Shown here: positions 18,587-64,000 of the stretch, piece after piece | Numbering within the stretch: position 1 is the first letter of the stretch | Layout of the letters: each line of letters begins with the position of its first letter | Virus record (IMG/VR): IMGVR_UViG_3300014204_000113 | Coordinates: 64,001 to 128,000 of that record | DNA from: a virus | Lineage: Duplodnaviria > Caudoviricetes | Reading direction: 5' to 3' (one strand) | Length of the DNA: 64,000 nucleotides | Position numbers and translations under genes: made by a program | The notes under the pieces: model-generated | Told to the model about the DNA's origin: nothing | What the model saw: the letters and a program-made list of their open reading frames with translations, nothing else | Databases searched by the model: none

Positions 18587-18706
18587 GGTTAGGTTTGGTT
18601 AGGTGGGGTCCGGTAAGGTGAGGTAAGGTGAGGTGTGATGAGGTTGGGTAAGGTGGGGTGAGGTAAGGTATGGTAAGGTACGGTATGGTAGGCTAGGGTG
18701 AGGTAT
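18587..18706 (+). ncRNA. GGT-NN pentamer array A2 (24 units), putative guide RNA
   Basis: starts at the base after the recA stop; NN = TA TT TA GG CC AA GA AA GA GT GA TG AA GG GA AA AT AA AC AT AG AG GA AT. Confidence 0.88.
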
Positions 18707-18711
18707 GGATT

Positions 18712-19026
18712 TTGCGACTTAAATTTGAAAGTTGTTTTGAAACTCAATTTCGGGAAGAACTTGAAAGTCGTGGATTCATAAAGAATAAAGATTTCATACA
18801 AGAATTTCCAGTTCGGTATCCAACCCGAATAATCGACTTTGTATTTTATGACAAAAAGGTTGGTGTTGAATTGGATGGTCCACATCACATTGGTAAGAAA
18901 AAGTATGTTGACAAGTGGAAAGATGAAAAAGCAATAAAACAAGGATGGGTTATTGTAAGATTTGATTTGGAGCAAATGAAAGATATCAAGAATTGTGTTG
19001 ATATGGCTTTAAGTTTGATTAAATGA
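18712..19026 (+). CDS. DUF559/Vsr-like PD-(D/E)XK endonuclease
   Basis: E...QEFPV...IIDF...VELDGPHH...D..KD.....GW.IVRF; TTG start with GAGGT RBS inside the array. Confidence 0.8.
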   Translation: MRLKFESCFETQFREELESRGFIKNKDFIQEFPVRYPTRIIDFVFYDKKVGVELDGPHHIGKKKYVDKWKDEKAIKQGWVIVRFDLEQMKDIKNCVDMALSLIK

Positions 19027-19122: not shown

Positions 19123-19653
19123 ATGGAGAAACAAATCATGGAGTTGACAAGAATTAAAGTAACAGTTCATGGAACAAAACCTCTTTTGGTGCATCGTTTT
19201 GCGGAAGAAGAAAGCGGCAAATCCAGGAAGAAAGCAACTGAGGATTCAAAAACGCAGGCAGAAAAGGCTCTTTACACAAATGCAGATGGACCTTATGCAC
19301 CATCTTCTTGGTTTGAAGGAGCTATGGTTAAAGCCGGTGTAAATTTCTCGTTGCGCGGCAAGAAAACTTACAAAGATTTGGTTAAAAGTGCGGTTGTGGT
19401 GACACCAGAAGAAATTCCTCTACGCAACGAATGGGAAGTAGATTCTCGTCCTGTTGTGATTAGCGGCAGGATTATGCGCCATCGTCCTAAATTTAAAGAA
19501 TGGTCGGCAGAATTCACAGTTGAAATTACAGACCCGCAATTACCAGCAAATGTCTTGCAAGACATTTTGAAAGATGCAGGACAATATTGTGGCGTGGGTG
19601 ACTACAGACCCAAGTTTGGTACTTTTGAAATTGTTGAATTTAAAGAAATTTAA
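19123..19653 (+). CDS. stand-alone RAMP/Cas7-like protein, paralog 1 (GGT arrays)
   Basis: VHGTKPLL, PSS, DSRPVV...RIMRHRPKF..W, C-terminal G-loop AG..CGVGDYRPKFGTF. Confidence 0.8.
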   Translation: MEKQIMELTRIKVTVHGTKPLLVHRFAEEESGKSRKKATEDSKTQAEKALYTNADGPYAPSSWFEGAMVKAGVNFSLRGKKTYKDLVKSAVVVTPEEIPLRNEWEVDSRPVVISGRIMRHRPKFKEWSAEFTVEITDPQLPANVLQDILKDAGQYCGVGDYRPKFGTFEIVEFKEI

Positions 19654-22983: not shown

Positions 22984-23058
22984 AGCATGGTTAGGCGAGT
23001 CCGGGCGATGCTAGGTAGGGCATGGCCAGGCGGGTCTAGGTGTGGCAGGTTGTGGCGA
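22984..23058 (+). ncRNA. GGC-NN pentamer array B1 (15 units)
   Basis: NN = AT TA GA CG GA TA AG AT CA GG TA GT AG GT GA; triplet mostly GGC/GGT with variants. Confidence 0.85.
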
Positions 23059-23106
23059 GGATTTAAAAAACGAAAAATCTAACACAAATAAAAGGAGGAA
23101 CAACAA

Positions 23107-23661
23107 ATGAACTTGGTACTGTGTAAATACAAAATTACTGGCTTATTTCCACTTTTAACCCACAGTCCTGCTGGAATGAGGCAAGCGGCCAATGCGCCAA
23201 AAGTCAAGAAGATTCCATCGCCAGAAGATGAAGCACAAGCTGGTTTGTATATTGATAATGATGGAAATTATTGCATCCCGTCTATTGCTTTTCGTTCAGC
23301 TTTATTGAATGGATTGAAAGGGAAAAAGATTGGCAAGGTGGGTGCAATTTCAGTGTTTCAAGCTGCGGTTTTTAACGTGGACGAATTGAGTCCATTAGTT
23401 GACCCTGAAACTGGGCGAGCATTAAGGGAATATACGATCGACACTCGTAGAGCTATCGTGCAAAGACAAGGAATTTTAAGAAACCGTCCAAGATTTGAAA
23501 AATGGGGATGTAATGTTTTTCTTCAAATCGACTTGGAAATAACCACACCTGAGCAAGTAGAAGAAGCATTGAATACGGCTGGTCAAATCATTGGCGTGGG
23601 TGATTTCCGTATTGAAAAGAGAGGAATGTTCGGTAAGTTTCAAGCCGAATTGGTTGAATAA
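23107..23661 (+). CDS. stand-alone RAMP/Cas7-like protein, paralog 2 (GGC arrays)
   Basis: ITGLFPLL, IPS, DTRRAIV...ILRNRPRF..W, AG..IGVGDFR....GMFGKF. Confidence 0.8.
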   Translation: MNLVLCKYKITGLFPLLTHSPAGMRQAANAPKVKKIPSPEDEAQAGLYIDNDGNYCIPSIAFRSALLNGLKGKKIGKVGAISVFQAAVFNVDELSPLVDPETGRALREYTIDTRRAIVQRQGILRNRPRFEKWGCNVFLQIDLEITTPEQVEEALNTAGQIIGVGDFRIEKRGMFGKFQAELVE

Positions 23662-23679
23662 AAGATTTTAAAGATTTGT

Positions 23680-23744
23680 GGCAAGGCGAGGCTGGGCTAG
23701 GCGGGGCTAGGCGGGGCTAGGCGGGGCTAGGTATGTCAAGGCGA
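23680..23744 (+). ncRNA. GGC-NN pentamer array B2 (13 units)
   Basis: NN = AA GA TG TA GG TA GG TA GG TA AT AA GA; internal (GGCGGGGCTA)x3. Confidence 0.8.
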
Positions 23745-23789
23745 GGTTTGAAAAAGAAATTAAGAACAAGAAATATAATGATTTTTCGC

Positions 23790-23839
23790 GGCGGGGTGGG
23801 GCGATGCCCGGCCCGGCATGGTAAGGCAAGTTAAGGCGA
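23790..23839 (+). ncRNA. GGC-NN pentamer array B3 (10 units)
   Basis: NN = GG GG GA CC CC AT AA AA AA GA. Confidence 0.8.
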
Positions 23840-23870
23840 GGGTTTTCAAACAAAACAAAGGAGAATAAAT

Positions 23871-24548
23871 ATGCTAATCAAAGCAGCAGAATTGATTGAG
23901 GATTTCAGTTTATATCCACGTTCCCAAGTGGACACAACACATGTAAGAAATATTGCAGAAGCAATGATGGCAGGAGAAAAATTTCCGTCTATCATCATTG
24001 ATGAACAAAATAGGATTATTGATGGCTTCCATCGGAAAAGAGCTACATTGAGGGTTTTTGGAGATGAGGCTGATATTGAAGTAGAAGTTCGACAATATGT
24101 TAACGATAAAGAAAGATTTCTTGATGCTTTGAGATATAATTCAAGACACGGTAAGGGAATAACTGGAGTTGAACAGACAGGAGCTATTTTGAAGGCTCAA
24201 GGTTTCAAGATTGACCCTAAATTTATCGCTTCTGCTTTGGGAATCAGCCAAGAAAGAGTCAAAGAAATCGTGCAATGTAAAGTCGGGAACATTCGCCAAG
24301 GTACGACTGCTCATGGAGACCCAGTTCCTCTAAAACGCTCTATGCAGCATTTTGCTGGGAAAGAAATGACTGTTGAGCAAGTTAAGGTGAATGATATGGC
24401 TCCCGGCACGCCACAATCTCTTCTTATCAATCAACTTATCGGATTTATTGAAAGCGGTAGTTTACAACTGGAAAATGAAAAGATTGTTAATGGACTCATC
24501 CATTTGAAGGAACTTTTAAATGGATTGGTTTTGGAAAAAGCGGTTTGA
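23871..24548 (+). CDS. ParB/Srx N-terminal domain protein inside the GGC module
   Basis: YPR, FPSIII, IIDGFHRKRA, N..HG, followed by a possible HTH (IASALGIS). Confidence 0.75.
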   Translation: MLIKAAELIEDFSLYPRSQVDTTHVRNIAEAMMAGEKFPSIIIDEQNRIIDGFHRKRATLRVFGDEADIEVEVRQYVNDKERFLDALRYNSRHGKGITGVEQTGAILKAQGFKIDPKFIASALGISQERVKEIVQCKVGNIRQGTTAHGDPVPLKRSMQHFAGKEMTVEQVKVNDMAPGTPQSLLINQLIGFIESGSLQLENEKIVNGLIHLKELLNGLVLEKAV

Positions 24549-24563
24549 AATAATTAAAGATTT

Positions 24564-24623
24564 GGCTCGGCTTGGTTGGGCGCGGCTAGGCTATGCGCGG
24601 CTTTGCGTGGCAGGGCAAGGCGT
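24564..24623 (+). ncRNA. GGC-NN pentamer array B4 (12 units)
   Basis: NN = TC TT TG GC TA TA GC TT GT AG AA GT. Confidence 0.8.
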
Positions 24624-61307: not shown

Positions 61308-61708
61308 CTTAATAAGGAGAAGAAATTTGACAGAAAAATTAATTTCAATGAAGGGTGGTAACAAACCTTCAATAACAAGAGAAACAATAAGATTAATGAA
61401 AGAGGAATTACCATACATCCTTGAATATTTTCCTATTTATGCTGAAATGACAAAAGCTAAATTTGAGGCTTTAAAAGAGAAAGGGTTTACTGAAATTCAG
61501 GCATTAGAATTGTGCAAGGGTTTTATGTTATAAGGAGAAATTATGGGTGATTATGCTTTGCCTTCTATTTATGAAAGATGCGGCTGGAAAAAAGACGAGG
61601 TTTATCTTCATTCCTTGCTTGAAAGATGTGCAGAAGGACTTGCAGCAGCAACTCAATATGGCGCAGGTAATTGGTCTGAACTAATTAAAGAAATTTATAG
61701 GGTGATAA

Positions 61709-62410
61709 ATGTCCAAGAAGACTAAATCCAAGAAACCTAAAGGTATCTCTCCAGAAGAATTCTTAAAAAACCTTAACACTCTAGATTTGTTGGATGGGAA
61801 TTTTTCTGATAATGATGCCTTAGCTCTTATGAAATTAGCTAAAGAATCAATCAAAGATAAAAGTGGACCTTTTAATTTTTTAGAAATTGGAACATGGAAG
61901 GGGAAATCACTTATTTGTCTCTCTGTTATAATAAGTAAATTCCCAGAAAGTAAAATTTTTGCTATAGACCATTTTAAAGGTACATTTGGAACAAACGAAG
62001 AACAACTTGCTAAAACTAATGACATATTGACAACTTGTAAAAATAATTTAAAAATAGTAAATGCTAGTGATATTGTTTGTCTATTAAATATGAATTACTT
62101 TGATGCAATCAAAATATTAAAGCAAAAATTTTTTGACTTTATATATATTGATATGGACAATAGTTATCAAGTAATGAAAAGTGTTTTGTGTGATTCTAGA
62201 AATTTAATTAAAAGTGGAGGAATGATATGTGGAAGAAATTTAATTGCAGATTATCTAGATGTAAAAGAAATTATAGACTCTAATCTTAATAAAGAATATT
62301 TAGAAGAATCAAAAATGCATCCTGGAATTATACGATCTGTCTATGATGTTTTTGCAAATAAATATCAAAAAATGGATAATAGTTCTTTTTGGTATTGGAT
62401 TAATAATTAA
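61709..62410 (+). CDS. class I SAM methyltransferase (Methyltransf_24)
   Basis: LEIGTWKGKS, AIDHF, FIYID, GGMICG. Confidence 0.82.
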   Translation: MSKKTKSKKPKGISPEEFLKNLNTLDLLDGNFSDNDALALMKLAKESIKDKSGPFNFLEIGTWKGKSLICLSVIISKFPESKIFAIDHFKGTFGTNEEQLAKTNDILTTCKNNLKIVNASDIVCLLNMNYFDAIKILKQKFFDFIYIDMDNSYQVMKSVLCDSRNLIKSGGMICGRNLIADYLDVKEIIDSNLNKEYLEESKMHPGIIRSVYDVFANKYQKMDNSSFWYWINN

Positions 62411-62438
62411 TAATATTTGGTAATATCCAACTGGATAT

Positions 62439-62528
62439 TGTGTTGTAATGTTCTGTGTTGTGTGGCGCTGTAGTGTAATGTTAAGTCCTGTAGTGTGGCG
62501 TAGTGTGTTGTTATGTGTTCTATTCTAA
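62439..62528 (+). ncRNA. TGT-NN pentamer array C1 (18 units)
   Basis: NN = GT AA TC GT GT GC AG AA TA CC AG GG AG GT TA GT AT AA; flanked by hairpins AATATCCA/TGGATATT and GGATTC/GAATCC. Confidence 0.82.
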
Positions 62529-62574
62529 GGGGATTCTGTATTGAATCCAAAATAAATTTAAGGAGAATTAAATA

Positions 62575-63141
62575 ATGAAAATTAAAGTTACAATTCAAGG
62601 AACAGTTCCAATTTTATTTAATCGTTTTGCAGAAGAGAATGAAGTTAAAGTTGCTTCTGGAATTAATCCAGTTCAAGGAGGACAAAGAGGAACGCCTAGA
62701 GAACAAGCAGAAAAGAAACTATATCAAGACGTGGATGGGAATTTGTTTCTTCCAAGTCCTATGTTATTTTCTTGTTTAGTAGATGCTGGTAAATTCCATA
62801 AAGTGGGAAGAAATAAAGTTACGACTCAGAAGACTTCTTTAGTTCCTGCCGGTATATCTGTTGAAGAATTAATCATTCCGTTTAATACTAAAGATTGGGA
62901 AATTGATTCTAGAAGCGTTGTGATACCATCTACTGGTGGTAGAATCATGTGTCACAGACCCCGGCTTGATGAGTGGCAATTAACTTTCACTTTGGATGTT
63001 GATACAACAATGTTTGATCCTAAGTTTGTTAGGACTCTTATGGATGATGCAGGCAAGAAATGTGGCTTGGGTGATTATAGACCTAATCGTAAAGGGCCAT
63101 TTGGTAAATTTGTTGTGATTAATTGGGAAGAAGAAAAATAA
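62575..63141 (+). CDS. stand-alone RAMP/Cas7-like protein, paralog 3 (TGT array)
   Basis: IQGTVPIL, LPS, DSRSVVI...RIMCHRPRL..W, AG..CGLGDYRP..KGPFGKF. Confidence 0.8.
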   Translation: MKIKVTIQGTVPILFNRFAEENEVKVASGINPVQGGQRGTPREQAEKKLYQDVDGNLFLPSPMLFSCLVDAGKFHKVGRNKVTTQKTSLVPAGISVEELIIPFNTKDWEIDSRSVVIPSTGGRIMCHRPRLDEWQLTFTLDVDTTMFDPKFVRTLMDDAGKKCGLGDYRPNRKGPFGKFVVINWEEEK

Positions 63142-63169: not shown

Positions 63170-63475
63170 ATGAAATTTGAATTAATGAAAGAATTAAACG
63201 AATTAATTCTTTCTATTGACAACCCGGTTGAAACAGCAACAGATTGGCTTTTTGATTATCAAACCTATAGTTATAATTATATAAGCGCAGAAACAAAAAA
63301 TAGAGTTGATAAACAAGAAGAATGGTTAAATTTACATCAACAACCTATTCTTTTAGGCGAGGAAATACAAACTGAAGAAGAAACGCTTGAGGAAATACTT
63401 GATGAACTTGAATCTTGGCTTCCTGCTCTTCAATCTGCTATTTGGGCAGTAAAAGAACTAAAGAAGGAATATTGA
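63170..63475 (+). CDS. hypothetical protein
   Basis: acidic 101-aa ORF directly after RAMP paralog 3. Confidence 0.5.
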   Translation: MKFELMKELNELILSIDNPVETATDWLFDYQTYSYNYISAETKNRVDKQEEWLNLHQQPILLGEEIQTEEETLEEILDELESWLPALQSAIWAVKELKKEY

Positions 63476-63485
63476 GGGTAAATAG

Positions 63486-64000
63486 ATGACAGTATGGTTC
63501 AGTGGAGACCAGCATCTTTCGCATGACTCTAAACATGGAGGAATAATCCAATATTGTAATCGTCCATTTGTAAGTTTGAAAGAAATGAATTCAGTAATTA
63601 TTGATAGAATGTTAGAAAAAGTTCATAAAGGAGATACATTATATTCTTTAGGCGATTTAACTTTCAAAAAAGATGTTGCTTTAAAGTTTGTTGAAATAAT
63701 TAAAAAAAATAACATCAATTTAATTTATATAAGAGGGAATCACGATAAAAATATCCTTCCTATTTTGAACACAGAAGGAATAAAAGTATATGATTTATTA
63801 ACAATAAATATTGCAAAACAACCTATAGTTTTGTGCCACTATGCGATGAGGACTTGGGACAATGGAGTTGCCATAACTCTTGGCAACTCCATTGTCACAG
63901 TCACCACACACTATCTCCGCAAGGTAAACAACTAGATTGTGGGGTGGATGGATTTGATTTTTATCCAGTTTCTTATGATACGGTAAGAAACATTATGAAG
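63486..64000 (+). pseudogene. calcineurin-like phosphoesterase with a frameshift near 63860, running off the window
   Basis: GDQH, LGD, GNHD, CHY in frame 1; WQLHCHSH...DCGVD continues in another frame. Confidence 0.7.

What the first reader, a model, noticed from the sequence alone, without database searches (positions are those of the whole stretch)
61922..63141. A third code variant: TGT-NN array with its own RAMP paralog
Array C1 uses TGT rather than GGY as the constant triplet and sits directly before paralog 3. Units 3-17 read S-V-V-A-S/R-K-Y-P-S/R-G-R/S-V-Y-V-I against resident methyltransferase S-V-I-I-S-K-F-P-E-S-K-I-F-A-I (61922-61966): 6 exact and 7 half matches (19/30 nt). A weaker alternative register exists at VYDVFANKYQK. 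A GG-based search would miss this array.
Basis: partly seen in the sequence, partly recalled or inferred. Interest (0 to 1): 0.88.

Follow-up and report, generated by a model that had tools for sequence, protein, structure and literature searches.

The report
UGU-repeat VIPR guide RNA with partner
A 90-base array of TGT-NN units and the small Cas7-like gene behind it form a VIPR module (a phage RNA-guided DNA-silencing system described in 2026), and its guide spells, skipping every third base, the methyltransferase gene of rival related phages but not the phage's own copy.

Summary
An 18-unit, strictly 5-nt-periodic array lies at 62439-62528 (13 TGT, plus GGC, AGT, CGT and 2 TCT). It sits 46 nt upstream of a 188-aa gene, one of three paralogs in this 188-kb phage. 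It is the only non-GG array of the 12 or more arrays in the genome.

The protein is a homolog of the characterised SUSP1 Vipr and has a Cas7-like fold, so this is a VIPR system (bioRxiv 10.64898/2026.04.26.720920).

Read by the published 1-nt-skip rule, guide units 3-17 match the methyltransferase gene of two related uncultured phages at 29 of 30 bases. Every skipped base falls on a codon's wobble position. The resident methyltransferase, at the same register, matches only 19/30, which on its own is borderline (shuffle p about 0.05).

The closest relatives of paralog 3 also carry NGY-NN arrays with a free first base, whereas arrays next to paralogs 1 and 2 are almost entirely GGT or GGC. Array and gene are missing together from a sister phage.

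Non-GGY repeats (YNNNG; WGT/NN) are already reported in 2026 preprints, and this scan has met relaxed NGY arrays on other DNA. This is therefore a new member of a known kind. Three things are new: a natural target for a UGU guide, three repeat types in one genome, and a guide linked to the phage's own mismatched allele. Exclusive binding of paralog 3 to this RNA is untested.

The parts
61709..62410 (+). Resident class I SAM methyltransferase (233 aa). This is the phage's own allele of the gene the guide targets, and it is mismatched to the guide.
   Evidence: Pfam Methyltransf_24, E 1.6e-11. Homologs at 42-56% identity are in related phages.
61922..61966 (+). Site in the resident gene homologous to the guide's target. 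It matches 19/30 NN bases (63%), below the 80% used in the VIPR paper to call a target.
   Evidence: No site in the phage's own genome exceeds 22/36.
62423..62438 (+). Short hairpin (6-bp stem, ATATCC/GGATAT) directly 5' of unit 1. Its role is unknown; it may be a 5' boundary or the end of the methyltransferase transcript.
   Evidence: Sequence and the centroid fold. No terminator-like site was scored.
62439..62528 (+). vrRNA repeat tract of 18 pentamers. The constant triplet is mostly TGT (NGY type) and the NN dinucleotides are variable.
   Evidence: The tract is not significantly structured (z -0.96).
62449..62523 (+). Guide proper, units 3-17. It matches rival methyltransferase alleles at 29/30 under the 1-nt-skip rule.
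   Evidence: In L020 units 4-17 match 28/28, and in L021 units 5-17 match 26/26. Units 1, 2 and 18 are mismatched. Units 17-18 (AT, AA, then GGG) resemble the conserved 3' ends of the genome's GGT arrays.
62531..62548 (+). 3' hairpin (GGATTC / GAATCC), a candidate vrRNA tail.
   Evidence: Present in both the MFE and the centroid fold. No pseudoknot was shown.
62560..62565 (+). AAGGAG ribosome-binding site of vipr paralog 3.
   Evidence: Sequence, 9 nt before the ATG.
62575..63141 (+). vipr paralog 3 (188 aa), a Cas7-like RAMP and the presumed partner of the UGU array.
   Evidence: phrog_4652, E 1e-18. PDB 36pp 'SUSP1 Vipr protein', E 1.2e-6. AlphaFold model with pLDDT 85 hits Cas7/Csm3 chains at E 3e-7, probability 1.0. 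R138, D177 and R179 of SUSP1 are conserved in the alignment, and H17 is replaced by N.
19123..19653 (+). vipr paralog 1 (176 aa), flanked by GGT arrays (context).
23107..23661 (+). vipr paralog 2 (184 aa), flanked by four GGC arrays at 22984-23048, 23680-23749, 23790-23839 and 24564-24623 (context).

Best explanation
The array is the repeat tract of a VIPR guide RNA (vrRNA) whose constant handle is UGU instead of GGY. The gene behind it encodes a Vipr protein of a clade that does not require G at the first handle position.

Proposed mechanism, by analogy with SUSP1 VIPR. One Vipr protomer binds each pentamer, sequesters the triplet and exposes the NN dinucleotides. The filament pairs these with double-stranded DNA, skipping every third base. 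It forms an R-loop triplex and blocks transcription.

The natural target is codons about 63-77 of the methyltransferase gene in the sugar-modification cluster of closely related phages that co-occur with this one. The phage's own allele differs at 11 of 30 read positions and so escapes. Guide and mismatched allele are adjacent, which would keep them linked when related phages recombine.

Shown here: the repeat anatomy, homology and fold of the protein, the near-perfect gapped match to rival alleles, absence of a self-match, joint absence of array and gene from a sister phage, and NGY arrays beside the protein's relatives.

Inferred: transcription and processing of the RNA, loading by paralog 3 rather than paralogs 1 or 2, silencing as the outcome, and the benefit of linkage.
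For: Protein. tblastn of paralog 1 finds the Vipr gene of phage SUSP1 (30% identity over 97% of the query, E 2e-15). Paralog 3 finds the same family. Paralog 3 hits PDB 36pp 'SUSP1 Vipr protein' at E 1.2e-6. Its model (pLDDT 85, pTM 0.79) matches Cas7-family RAMPs. The RNA-contacting residues R138, D177 and R179 are invariant, with an aromatic residue at position 178.

RNA. There are 18 pentamers in perfect register on the gene's strand.

Target. Five methyltransferase homologs were found. In two of them (P0004 = L020, P0003 = L021) the peptide at the aligned site is the one the guide spells. Their DNA matches units 3-17 at 29/30 and the whole array at 30-31/36, while the next best site in each contig scores 19. 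The skipped bases are wobble positions and differ between the two contigs. L021 carries the radical-SAM gene upstream, and L020 carries a phosphoesterase homolog downstream, so both are relatives of this phage.

Co-occurrence. In a groundwater run that holds this phage at depth about 54, a minor contig at depth about 4 switches at 61846 into sequence that is 29/30 identical to the target-type alleles.

Self-avoidance. The best site in the phage's own genome is 22/36, equal to the shuffled mean. No array in the genome reaches 80% anywhere in it.

Pairing with paralog 3. This is the only non-GG array in the genome, and it adjoins paralog 3. In 80 loci of relatives (40-65% identity), the arrays beside the gene are NGY-NN with a variable first base: L024 has T12/15, L022 has G8 A20 T38 C21, and the 12 closest pooled have G155 A84 T124 C71. 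Arrays beside paralogs 1 and 2 have G first in 89-100% of units. The sister 189.6-kb phage has the methyltransferase and the downstream 101-aa gene, but neither array nor vipr between them.

Published rule and structures.
Against: There are no RNA data. No RNA run holds the stretch, so transcription, RNA ends and processing are unknown.

The promoter and terminator scans are at background level.

No accessory (vap) gene adjoins paralog 3.

The 3' hairpin is short, and no pseudoknot tail like that of SUSP1 is evident.

Units 1, 2 and 18 do not match either target.

The two target contigs are short (807 and 955 bp). No perfect target was found in IMG/VR or the JGI metagenome contigs.

Loading by paralog 3 rests on adjacency and comparison only. 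The H17-to-N change that might explain loss of G1 reading is not a clean predictor: L024 keeps H beside a T-rich array, and L072 has N beside 43/43 G.
Confidence: 0.8

Rival explanations
1. The array is a functional vrRNA with the target described, but it has no private partner. It is loaded by any of the three Viprs, or mainly by the GGU-type paralog 1, and paralog 3 is simply promiscuous or redundant.
For: The paralog-3 clade accepts any base at position 1, including G (one search shows G fractions from 0.07 to 1.0, and one search shows no trend with identity). D177, R138 and R179 are conserved in all three paralogs. Published work shows that solo vrRNAs can use another element's Vipr.
Against: In SUSP1, G1 is read by H17 and D177, and changing the GGY motif abolishes silencing. 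Arrays of the H-bearing paralogs 1 and 2 keep G1 almost without exception, so a UGU RNA should bind them poorly. Array and paralog 3 are present or absent together.
Confidence: 0.15
2. The array is a decaying former GGT array: a relic with no function whose first base has drifted to T.
For: Three units are not TGT at position 1, and two terminal units are TCT. No expression data exist.
Against: The register is perfect, with no indels. G2 and Y3 are kept in 16 of 18 units. G-to-T at the same position in 13 units is not drift (p 1.2e-4). The NN bases match a live target at 29/30. Relatives show the same NGY style.
Confidence: 0.03
3. The repeat tract is a cis-acting leader of the paralog-3 mRNA (for example autoregulatory binding sites for the protein, TRAP-like) and not a trans-acting guide.
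For: It lies in the 5' untranslated region, 46 nt from the start codon. No terminator separates it from the gene. Triplet-plus-spacer repeats are the binding mode of oligomeric RNA-binding regulators (my own knowledge).
Against: A leader has no reason to spell another phage's gene at 29/30 in codon register. Homologous proteins are proven guide-RNA effectors. The two roles do not exclude each other.
Confidence: 0.02

Closest known systems
VIPR type II of Escherichia phage SUSP1 (Vipr + vrRNA; bioRxiv 10.64898/2026.04.26.720920 and 10.64898/2026.04.26.720927; PDB 36pp)
   Same: The protein is homologous (about 25-30% identity) with the same G-loop GxGD(W/Y/F)R and the thumb arginine. The guide is built of pentamer repeats on the gene's strand. 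It follows the 1-nt-skip NN code with skipped bases on wobble positions. It targets a competing mobile element and does not target itself. It is encoded by a phage.
   Different: The handle is UGU rather than GGY. H17, which contacts G1, is N here. No vap gene lies beside paralog 3. There is a single guide in front of the gene rather than an upstream guide plus a downstream array. The tail is a short hairpin, not a pseudoknot. The target is an allele of a gene the phage itself carries next to the guide, not a satellite. Three paralogs are present in one genome.
Non-canonical VIPR repeats: YNNNG / NNNGG / NNNNG (methods of 10.64898/2026.04.26.720920) and WGT/NN, TGH/NN clusters (10.64898/2026.10.21.760802)
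   Same: TGT-NN is an instance of YNNNG and of WGT/NN, and it lies beside a Vipr-like fold.
   Different: Those reports are repeat logos from language-model entropy, with no targets given in the text I read. Here a natural target shows that the 1-nt-skip rule holds for such a guide. I could not see their figures, so I could not check whether this clade is among their clusters.
Class 1 CRISPR Cas7 backbone (type III Csm3, type VII Cas7, Cas7-11)
   Same: The fold is the same (Foldseek probability 1.0, TM about 0.5). One protomer binds per repeat of the guide, and thumb insertions break the duplex periodically.
   Different: There is no CRISPR array and no Cas1, Cas2, Cas5, Cas6, Cas10 or Cas11. 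The period is 5 nt with 2 read bases instead of 6 nt with 5 read bases. The guide is built of micro-repeats rather than a spacer.
Phage-borne solo vrRNAs aimed at relatives' genes (10.64898/2026.10.15.759431)
   Same: Guides score lower against self than against rivals, and closely related phages are in conflict.
   Different: Those guides target vipr genes, vrRNAs or satellites in SUSP1-like phages. Here the target is a sugar-cluster methyltransferase, and the guide is placed beside the phage's own mismatched allele.

Membership tests
VIPR system | Vipr protein homologous to characterised Vipr (SUSP1) | tested here: met
   tblastn finds SUSP1 at E 2e-15 for paralog 1, and the family is also found with paralog 3. 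phmmer against PDB 36pp 'SUSP1 Vipr protein' gives E 1.2e-6. The three paralogs are mutually related.
VIPR system | Minimal RAMP fold: single RRM core, glycine-rich loop, thumb | tested here: met
   The model has pLDDT 85 and pTM 0.79. Its top Foldseek hits are Cas7/Csm3/Cas7-11 at E 3e-7. The G-loop reads GLGDYR, and R138, D177 and R179 equivalents are conserved.
VIPR system | vrRNA of tandem pentamers: conserved GGY triplet alternating with hypervariable NN | tested here: inconclusive
   The pentamer architecture is met with 18 units. The triplet is TGT, not GGY: G2 and Y3 are kept and G1 is replaced. This fits the published 'related consensus' YNNNG and WGT/NN.
VIPR system | NN read with a 1-nt skip; natural target with at least 80% NN match; skip bases on wobble positions | tested here: met
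   29/30 (97%) for units 3-17 and 30-31/36 (83-86%) for all units, in two contigs and in codon register.
VIPR system | No self-target at or above 80% NN match | tested here: met
   The best site in the phage's own genome is 22/36 (61%), and the resident allele scores 20/36.
VIPR system | Invariant structured 3' tail capping the repeat tract | tested here: inconclusive
   A 6-bp hairpin lies at 62531-62548. The terminal units AT, AA followed by GGG resemble the ends of the genome's other arrays. No covariation test was possible.
VIPR system | Accessory vap gene next to vipr (typical, not universal) | tested here: not met
   The downstream 101-aa ORF has no Pfam or PHROG hit and is conserved in the sister phage that lacks the module. 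Candidate accessories lie beside the other paralogs instead: a DUF559 protein near paralog 1 and a ParB-like protein near paralog 2.
VIPR system | vrRNA expressed and bound by Vipr as a ribonucleoprotein; represses the target | not testable with these tools
   No RNA run holds the stretch, and the phage is uncultured.
CRISPR-Cas class 1 | CRISPR repeat-spacer array and further cas genes (cas1/2, cas5, cas6, large subunit) | tested here: not met
   Tandem Repeats Finder reported no repeats with a 25-40-nt period. The neighbours are a methyltransferase, a 101-aa ORF and a phosphoesterase.

The most novel reading that the evidence does not exclude
The three Vipr paralogs and their three handle types (GGU, GGC, UGU) are mutually insulated guide-protein pairs kept in one jumbo phage. 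On this reading, handle diversification is an escape from the hijacking of Vipr by rivals' solo or decoy vrRNAs. Placing each guide next to the phage's own mismatched allele would make 'guide plus mismatched allele' cassettes that are inherited together and spread through populations of recombining related phages.
Probability: 0.25. Interest if true: 0.7.

Novelty: new member of a known kind. Interest (0 to 1): 0.5.

Why it matters
VIPR was described only in 2026, and its experiments cover GGY guides. This locus gives a natural, near-perfect target for a UGU-handled guide. That indicates the 1-nt-skip code does not depend on the first handle base, which is useful when searching for such arrays or designing them.

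It also shows one phage holding three Vipr paralogs with different handles. Guides are scattered through a sugar-modification cluster, each beside the resident, mismatched copy of a gene that rival relatives carry in targetable form. This points to allele-level warfare between near-identical phages, and to a testable question of whether handle types insulate co-resident systems from each other.

Tried and rejected
My first guess was a TRAP-like RNA-binding regulator with triplet repeats. I dropped it once homology to SUSP1 Vipr and the target match were found.

Exact scans of IMG/VR with guide units 1-9 and 10-18 found nothing. With hindsight this is because units 1, 2 and 18 mismatch the real targets.

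Exact scans with units 5-17 found nothing in IMG/VR or the JGI metagenome contigs.

A 10-unit pattern gave one hit, L103. It scores only 23/36 overall, lies in an unrelated ORF, and matches the roughly one hit I estimated by chance.

Closest-relative searches for paralogs 1 and 2 in IMG/VR returned nothing. Lineage-specific handle conservation could therefore be tested only for paralog 3.

I tested whether N in place of SUSP1 H17 predicts loss of G1. The whole clade carries N and has variable G1, but there are exceptions in both directions. G fraction shows no trend with identity to paralog 3 (rho -0.07). The result is inconclusive.

Rfam has no family covering the array. The array is not unusually structured. 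The promoter and terminator scans are at background level.

No RNA holder is listed among public runs.

The sister phage G001 holds only one distant Vipr match. I did not scan its arrays.

Full report
**What is there.** The window is bases 64001-128000 of a single 187,988-bp, 34% GC virus record. Between the stop of a methyltransferase gene (61709-62410) and a 188-aa ORF (62575-63141) lies a tract of 18 pentamers in perfect register, starting at 62439. Thirteen units begin with TGT, and the others with GGC, AGT, CGT, TCT and TCT. The last two bases of each unit vary freely. A 6-bp hairpin precedes the tract (62423-62438) and another follows it (62531-62548). An AAGGAG site lies 9 nt before the ATG.

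A period-5 scan of the whole genome finds 12 or more such arrays. Most are GGT-NN, one of them on the minus strand. Four GGC-NN arrays cluster around 22984-24623. This is the only array whose first base is not G. T at that position in 13 of 16 xGY units is not explained by base composition (p 1.2e-4).

**The protein.** The ORF has two paralogs in the genome and no more. They are 19123-19653, which sits among GGT arrays, and 23107-23661, which sits among the GGC arrays. All three belong to phrog_4652 and have no Pfam family.

tblastn against cultured phages finds the hypothetical protein of Escherichia phage SUSP1 and its relatives (30% identity over 97% of paralog 1, E 2e-15). A sequence search of the PDB with paralog 3 returns one entry, 36pp 'SUSP1 Vipr protein', at E 1.2e-6.

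An AlphaFold model built on 38 sequences (pLDDT 85, pTM 0.79) matches Cas7-family backbones of type VII and type III systems and Cas7-11 at E about 3e-7.

In the alignment with SUSP1 Vipr, the residues reported to hold the handle are invariant: R138, D177 and R179, with an aromatic residue at 178. H17, one of the two contacts to the first guanine, is N in paralog 3 but H in paralogs 1 and 2.

**What is known.** A note from this scan (e1-5745267) pointed to VIPR, and I checked the papers. VIPR systems pair a minimal RAMP, called Vipr, with vrRNAs made of GGY/NN pentamers. The NN dinucleotides pair with double-stranded DNA while every third target base is skipped. Targets are competing phages and satellites, the outcome is transcriptional silencing, and no self-targets reach 80% NN match. 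The structures show one protomer per repeat and an R-loop triplex.

The first paper's methods mention alternative repeats NNNGG, YNNNG and NNNNG. A later preprint reports 21 clusters of non-canonical pentamer arrays beside Vipr-like folds, naming WGT/NN among them. TGT-NN falls within both YNNNG and WGT/NN.

**The target.** Within the phage's own genome the guide has no good site. The best is 22/36, which equals the mean maximum of unit-shuffled guides. That is one of only five positions in the genome reaching 19, but 4.7% of shuffles do as well within the gene, so alone it is only suggestive.

I then collected homologs of the methyltransferase. In a sister phage of 189.6 kb, the best site for the guide in the locus is the homologous codon stretch, at 21/36. 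A search of the large protein collection gave five homologs. In two of them (P0003, P0004; 52-55% identical to the resident protein) the aligned peptide reads ...VASKYPSGRVYVI..., which is what the guide's dinucleotides spell.

Their DNA (L020 from an ENA assembly, L021 from a Logan assembly) matches units 3-17 at 29/30. Perfect runs of 28/28 (L020, units 4-17) and 26/26 (L021, units 5-17) occur, and the second-best site in each contig scores 19. All skipped bases are third codon positions, and they differ between the two contigs, as the published rule predicts.

L021 carries the end of the radical-SAM gene found upstream in this phage. L020 runs from the methyltransferase directly into a homolog of the phosphoesterase at 63486. 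Both are therefore relatives with the same neighbourhood but without the array and vipr.

In a groundwater run where this phage has depth about 54, a minor contig of depth about 4 follows the resident gene to 61846. It then switches to sequence 29/30 identical to the target-type alleles. A target-type allele therefore appears to co-occur with the guide-bearing phage. The contig's target site itself was not visible to me.

**Is paralog 3 the partner?** Direct binding cannot be tested here. Three indirect lines point to it.

- The single non-GG array adjoins paralog 3, while arrays next to the H-bearing paralogs keep G first in 89-100% of units.
- In the sister phage, the interval between the methyltransferase and the ortholog of 63170-63475 holds a small unrelated ORF, with no array or vipr. 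The two therefore come and go as one cassette.
- Eighty IMG/VR loci encoding relatives of paralog 3 (40-65% identity) carry arrays directly before or after the gene that read NGY-NN with a variable first base. Examples are L024 (T12 A2 G1) and L022 (G8 A20 T38 C21), and the 12 closest pooled give G155 A84 T124 C71.

The clade thus seems not to read position 1. That explains why a UGU array can exist beside paralog 3. It also means paralog 3 might accept GGU arrays too, so any insulation may run in one direction only. The H17-to-N change is clade-wide but not a clean predictor.

**Mechanism proposed.** The tract is transcribed, either from an unidentified promoter or by read-through from the methyltransferase operon. 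It is bound by one Vipr protomer per pentamer, with UGU buried and NN exposed. The filament then invades the rival's methyltransferase gene inside a 15-kb sugar-biosynthesis cluster and blocks its transcription. That cluster contains an epimerase, a nucleotidyltransferase, a GHMP kinase, glycosyltransferases, B12 radical-SAM enzymes, split transketolase halves and methyltransferases.

The resident allele escapes through 11 mismatches. Several other arrays in this genome have their best own-genome hit, or their best hit within 2.5 kb, in the gene just upstream (48592 for the array at 48654; 22630 for the array at 22984; 18401 for the array at 18587). Guide next to the phage's own mismatched allele therefore looks like a rule here. 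My explanation for this, that linkage avoids lethal guide/allele combinations after recombination, is inference.

**Verdict.** The reading as a gapped-code guide with a Cas7-like partner is right, and its register on the methyltransferase is right. It is not a new code, and its handle variant has already been reported. This scan has also met relaxed NGY arrays on other DNA (e1-5327328). It is a new member of a known kind.

Three points go beyond the papers I read: a natural target for a non-GGY guide, three handle types with three paralogs in one genome, and guide-allele linkage.

Noticed in passing
window 44601-46121: A HEARO RNA (Rfam RF02033, 136 bits) lies directly upstream of a 425-aa ORF (44844-46121). 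This is the arrangement of an IscB-type RNA-guided nuclease with its omega RNA, carried in the same phage as VIPR.
   Followed up: no
window 22984-23048 and 23790-23839: Two further GGC-NN arrays flank vipr paralog 2. They were missed by the triplet-count scan and by Tandem Repeats Finder. Paralog 2 therefore has four GGC arrays within 1.6 kb, with a ParB-like gene (23871-24548) among them.
   Followed up: partly
3' ends of arrays at window 4927, 19034, 48654, 52344, 52446, 62439: Most arrays end with units whose NN is AT or AA, followed by GG(G/A)TTT or GGG. The TGT array also ends ...AT, ...AA, GGGG. This suggests a shared invariant 3' end that does not depend on the handle triplet, and the last one or two units may not be guide.
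   Followed up: partly
window 48654-48763 vs 48592; 22984-23048 vs 22630: For these two arrays the best gapped match in the whole genome (29/44 and 19/26) lies in the gene immediately upstream. This fits the pattern of a guide sitting beside the phage's own allele of its target.
   Followed up: partly
window 61327-61725; L021:163-217: The rival contig L021 goes from the radical-SAM gene straight into the methyltransferase behind the same promoter-like leader. This phage has two extra small ORFs there (68 and 60 aa, no family). The region around the methyltransferase varies in gene content among relatives.
   Followed up: no
L011:2181-2400 (sister phage G001): At the position where this phage carries array plus vipr, the sister phage has a small cysteine-rich ORF. 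Its genome holds only one distant Vipr match, at G001:155157-155621 (E 2e-9).
   Followed up: no
window 18712-19026: A 104-aa DUF559 (Vsr-like endonuclease) ORF lies between two GGT arrays just upstream of vipr paralog 1. It may be a nuclease-type accessory gene.
   Followed up: no
window 61846 (groundwater run X3): A minor contig in the same sample is near-identical to the resident methyltransferase up to 61846 and then becomes target-type sequence. This suggests mosaic or recombinant alleles among co-occurring relatives.
   Followed up: partly
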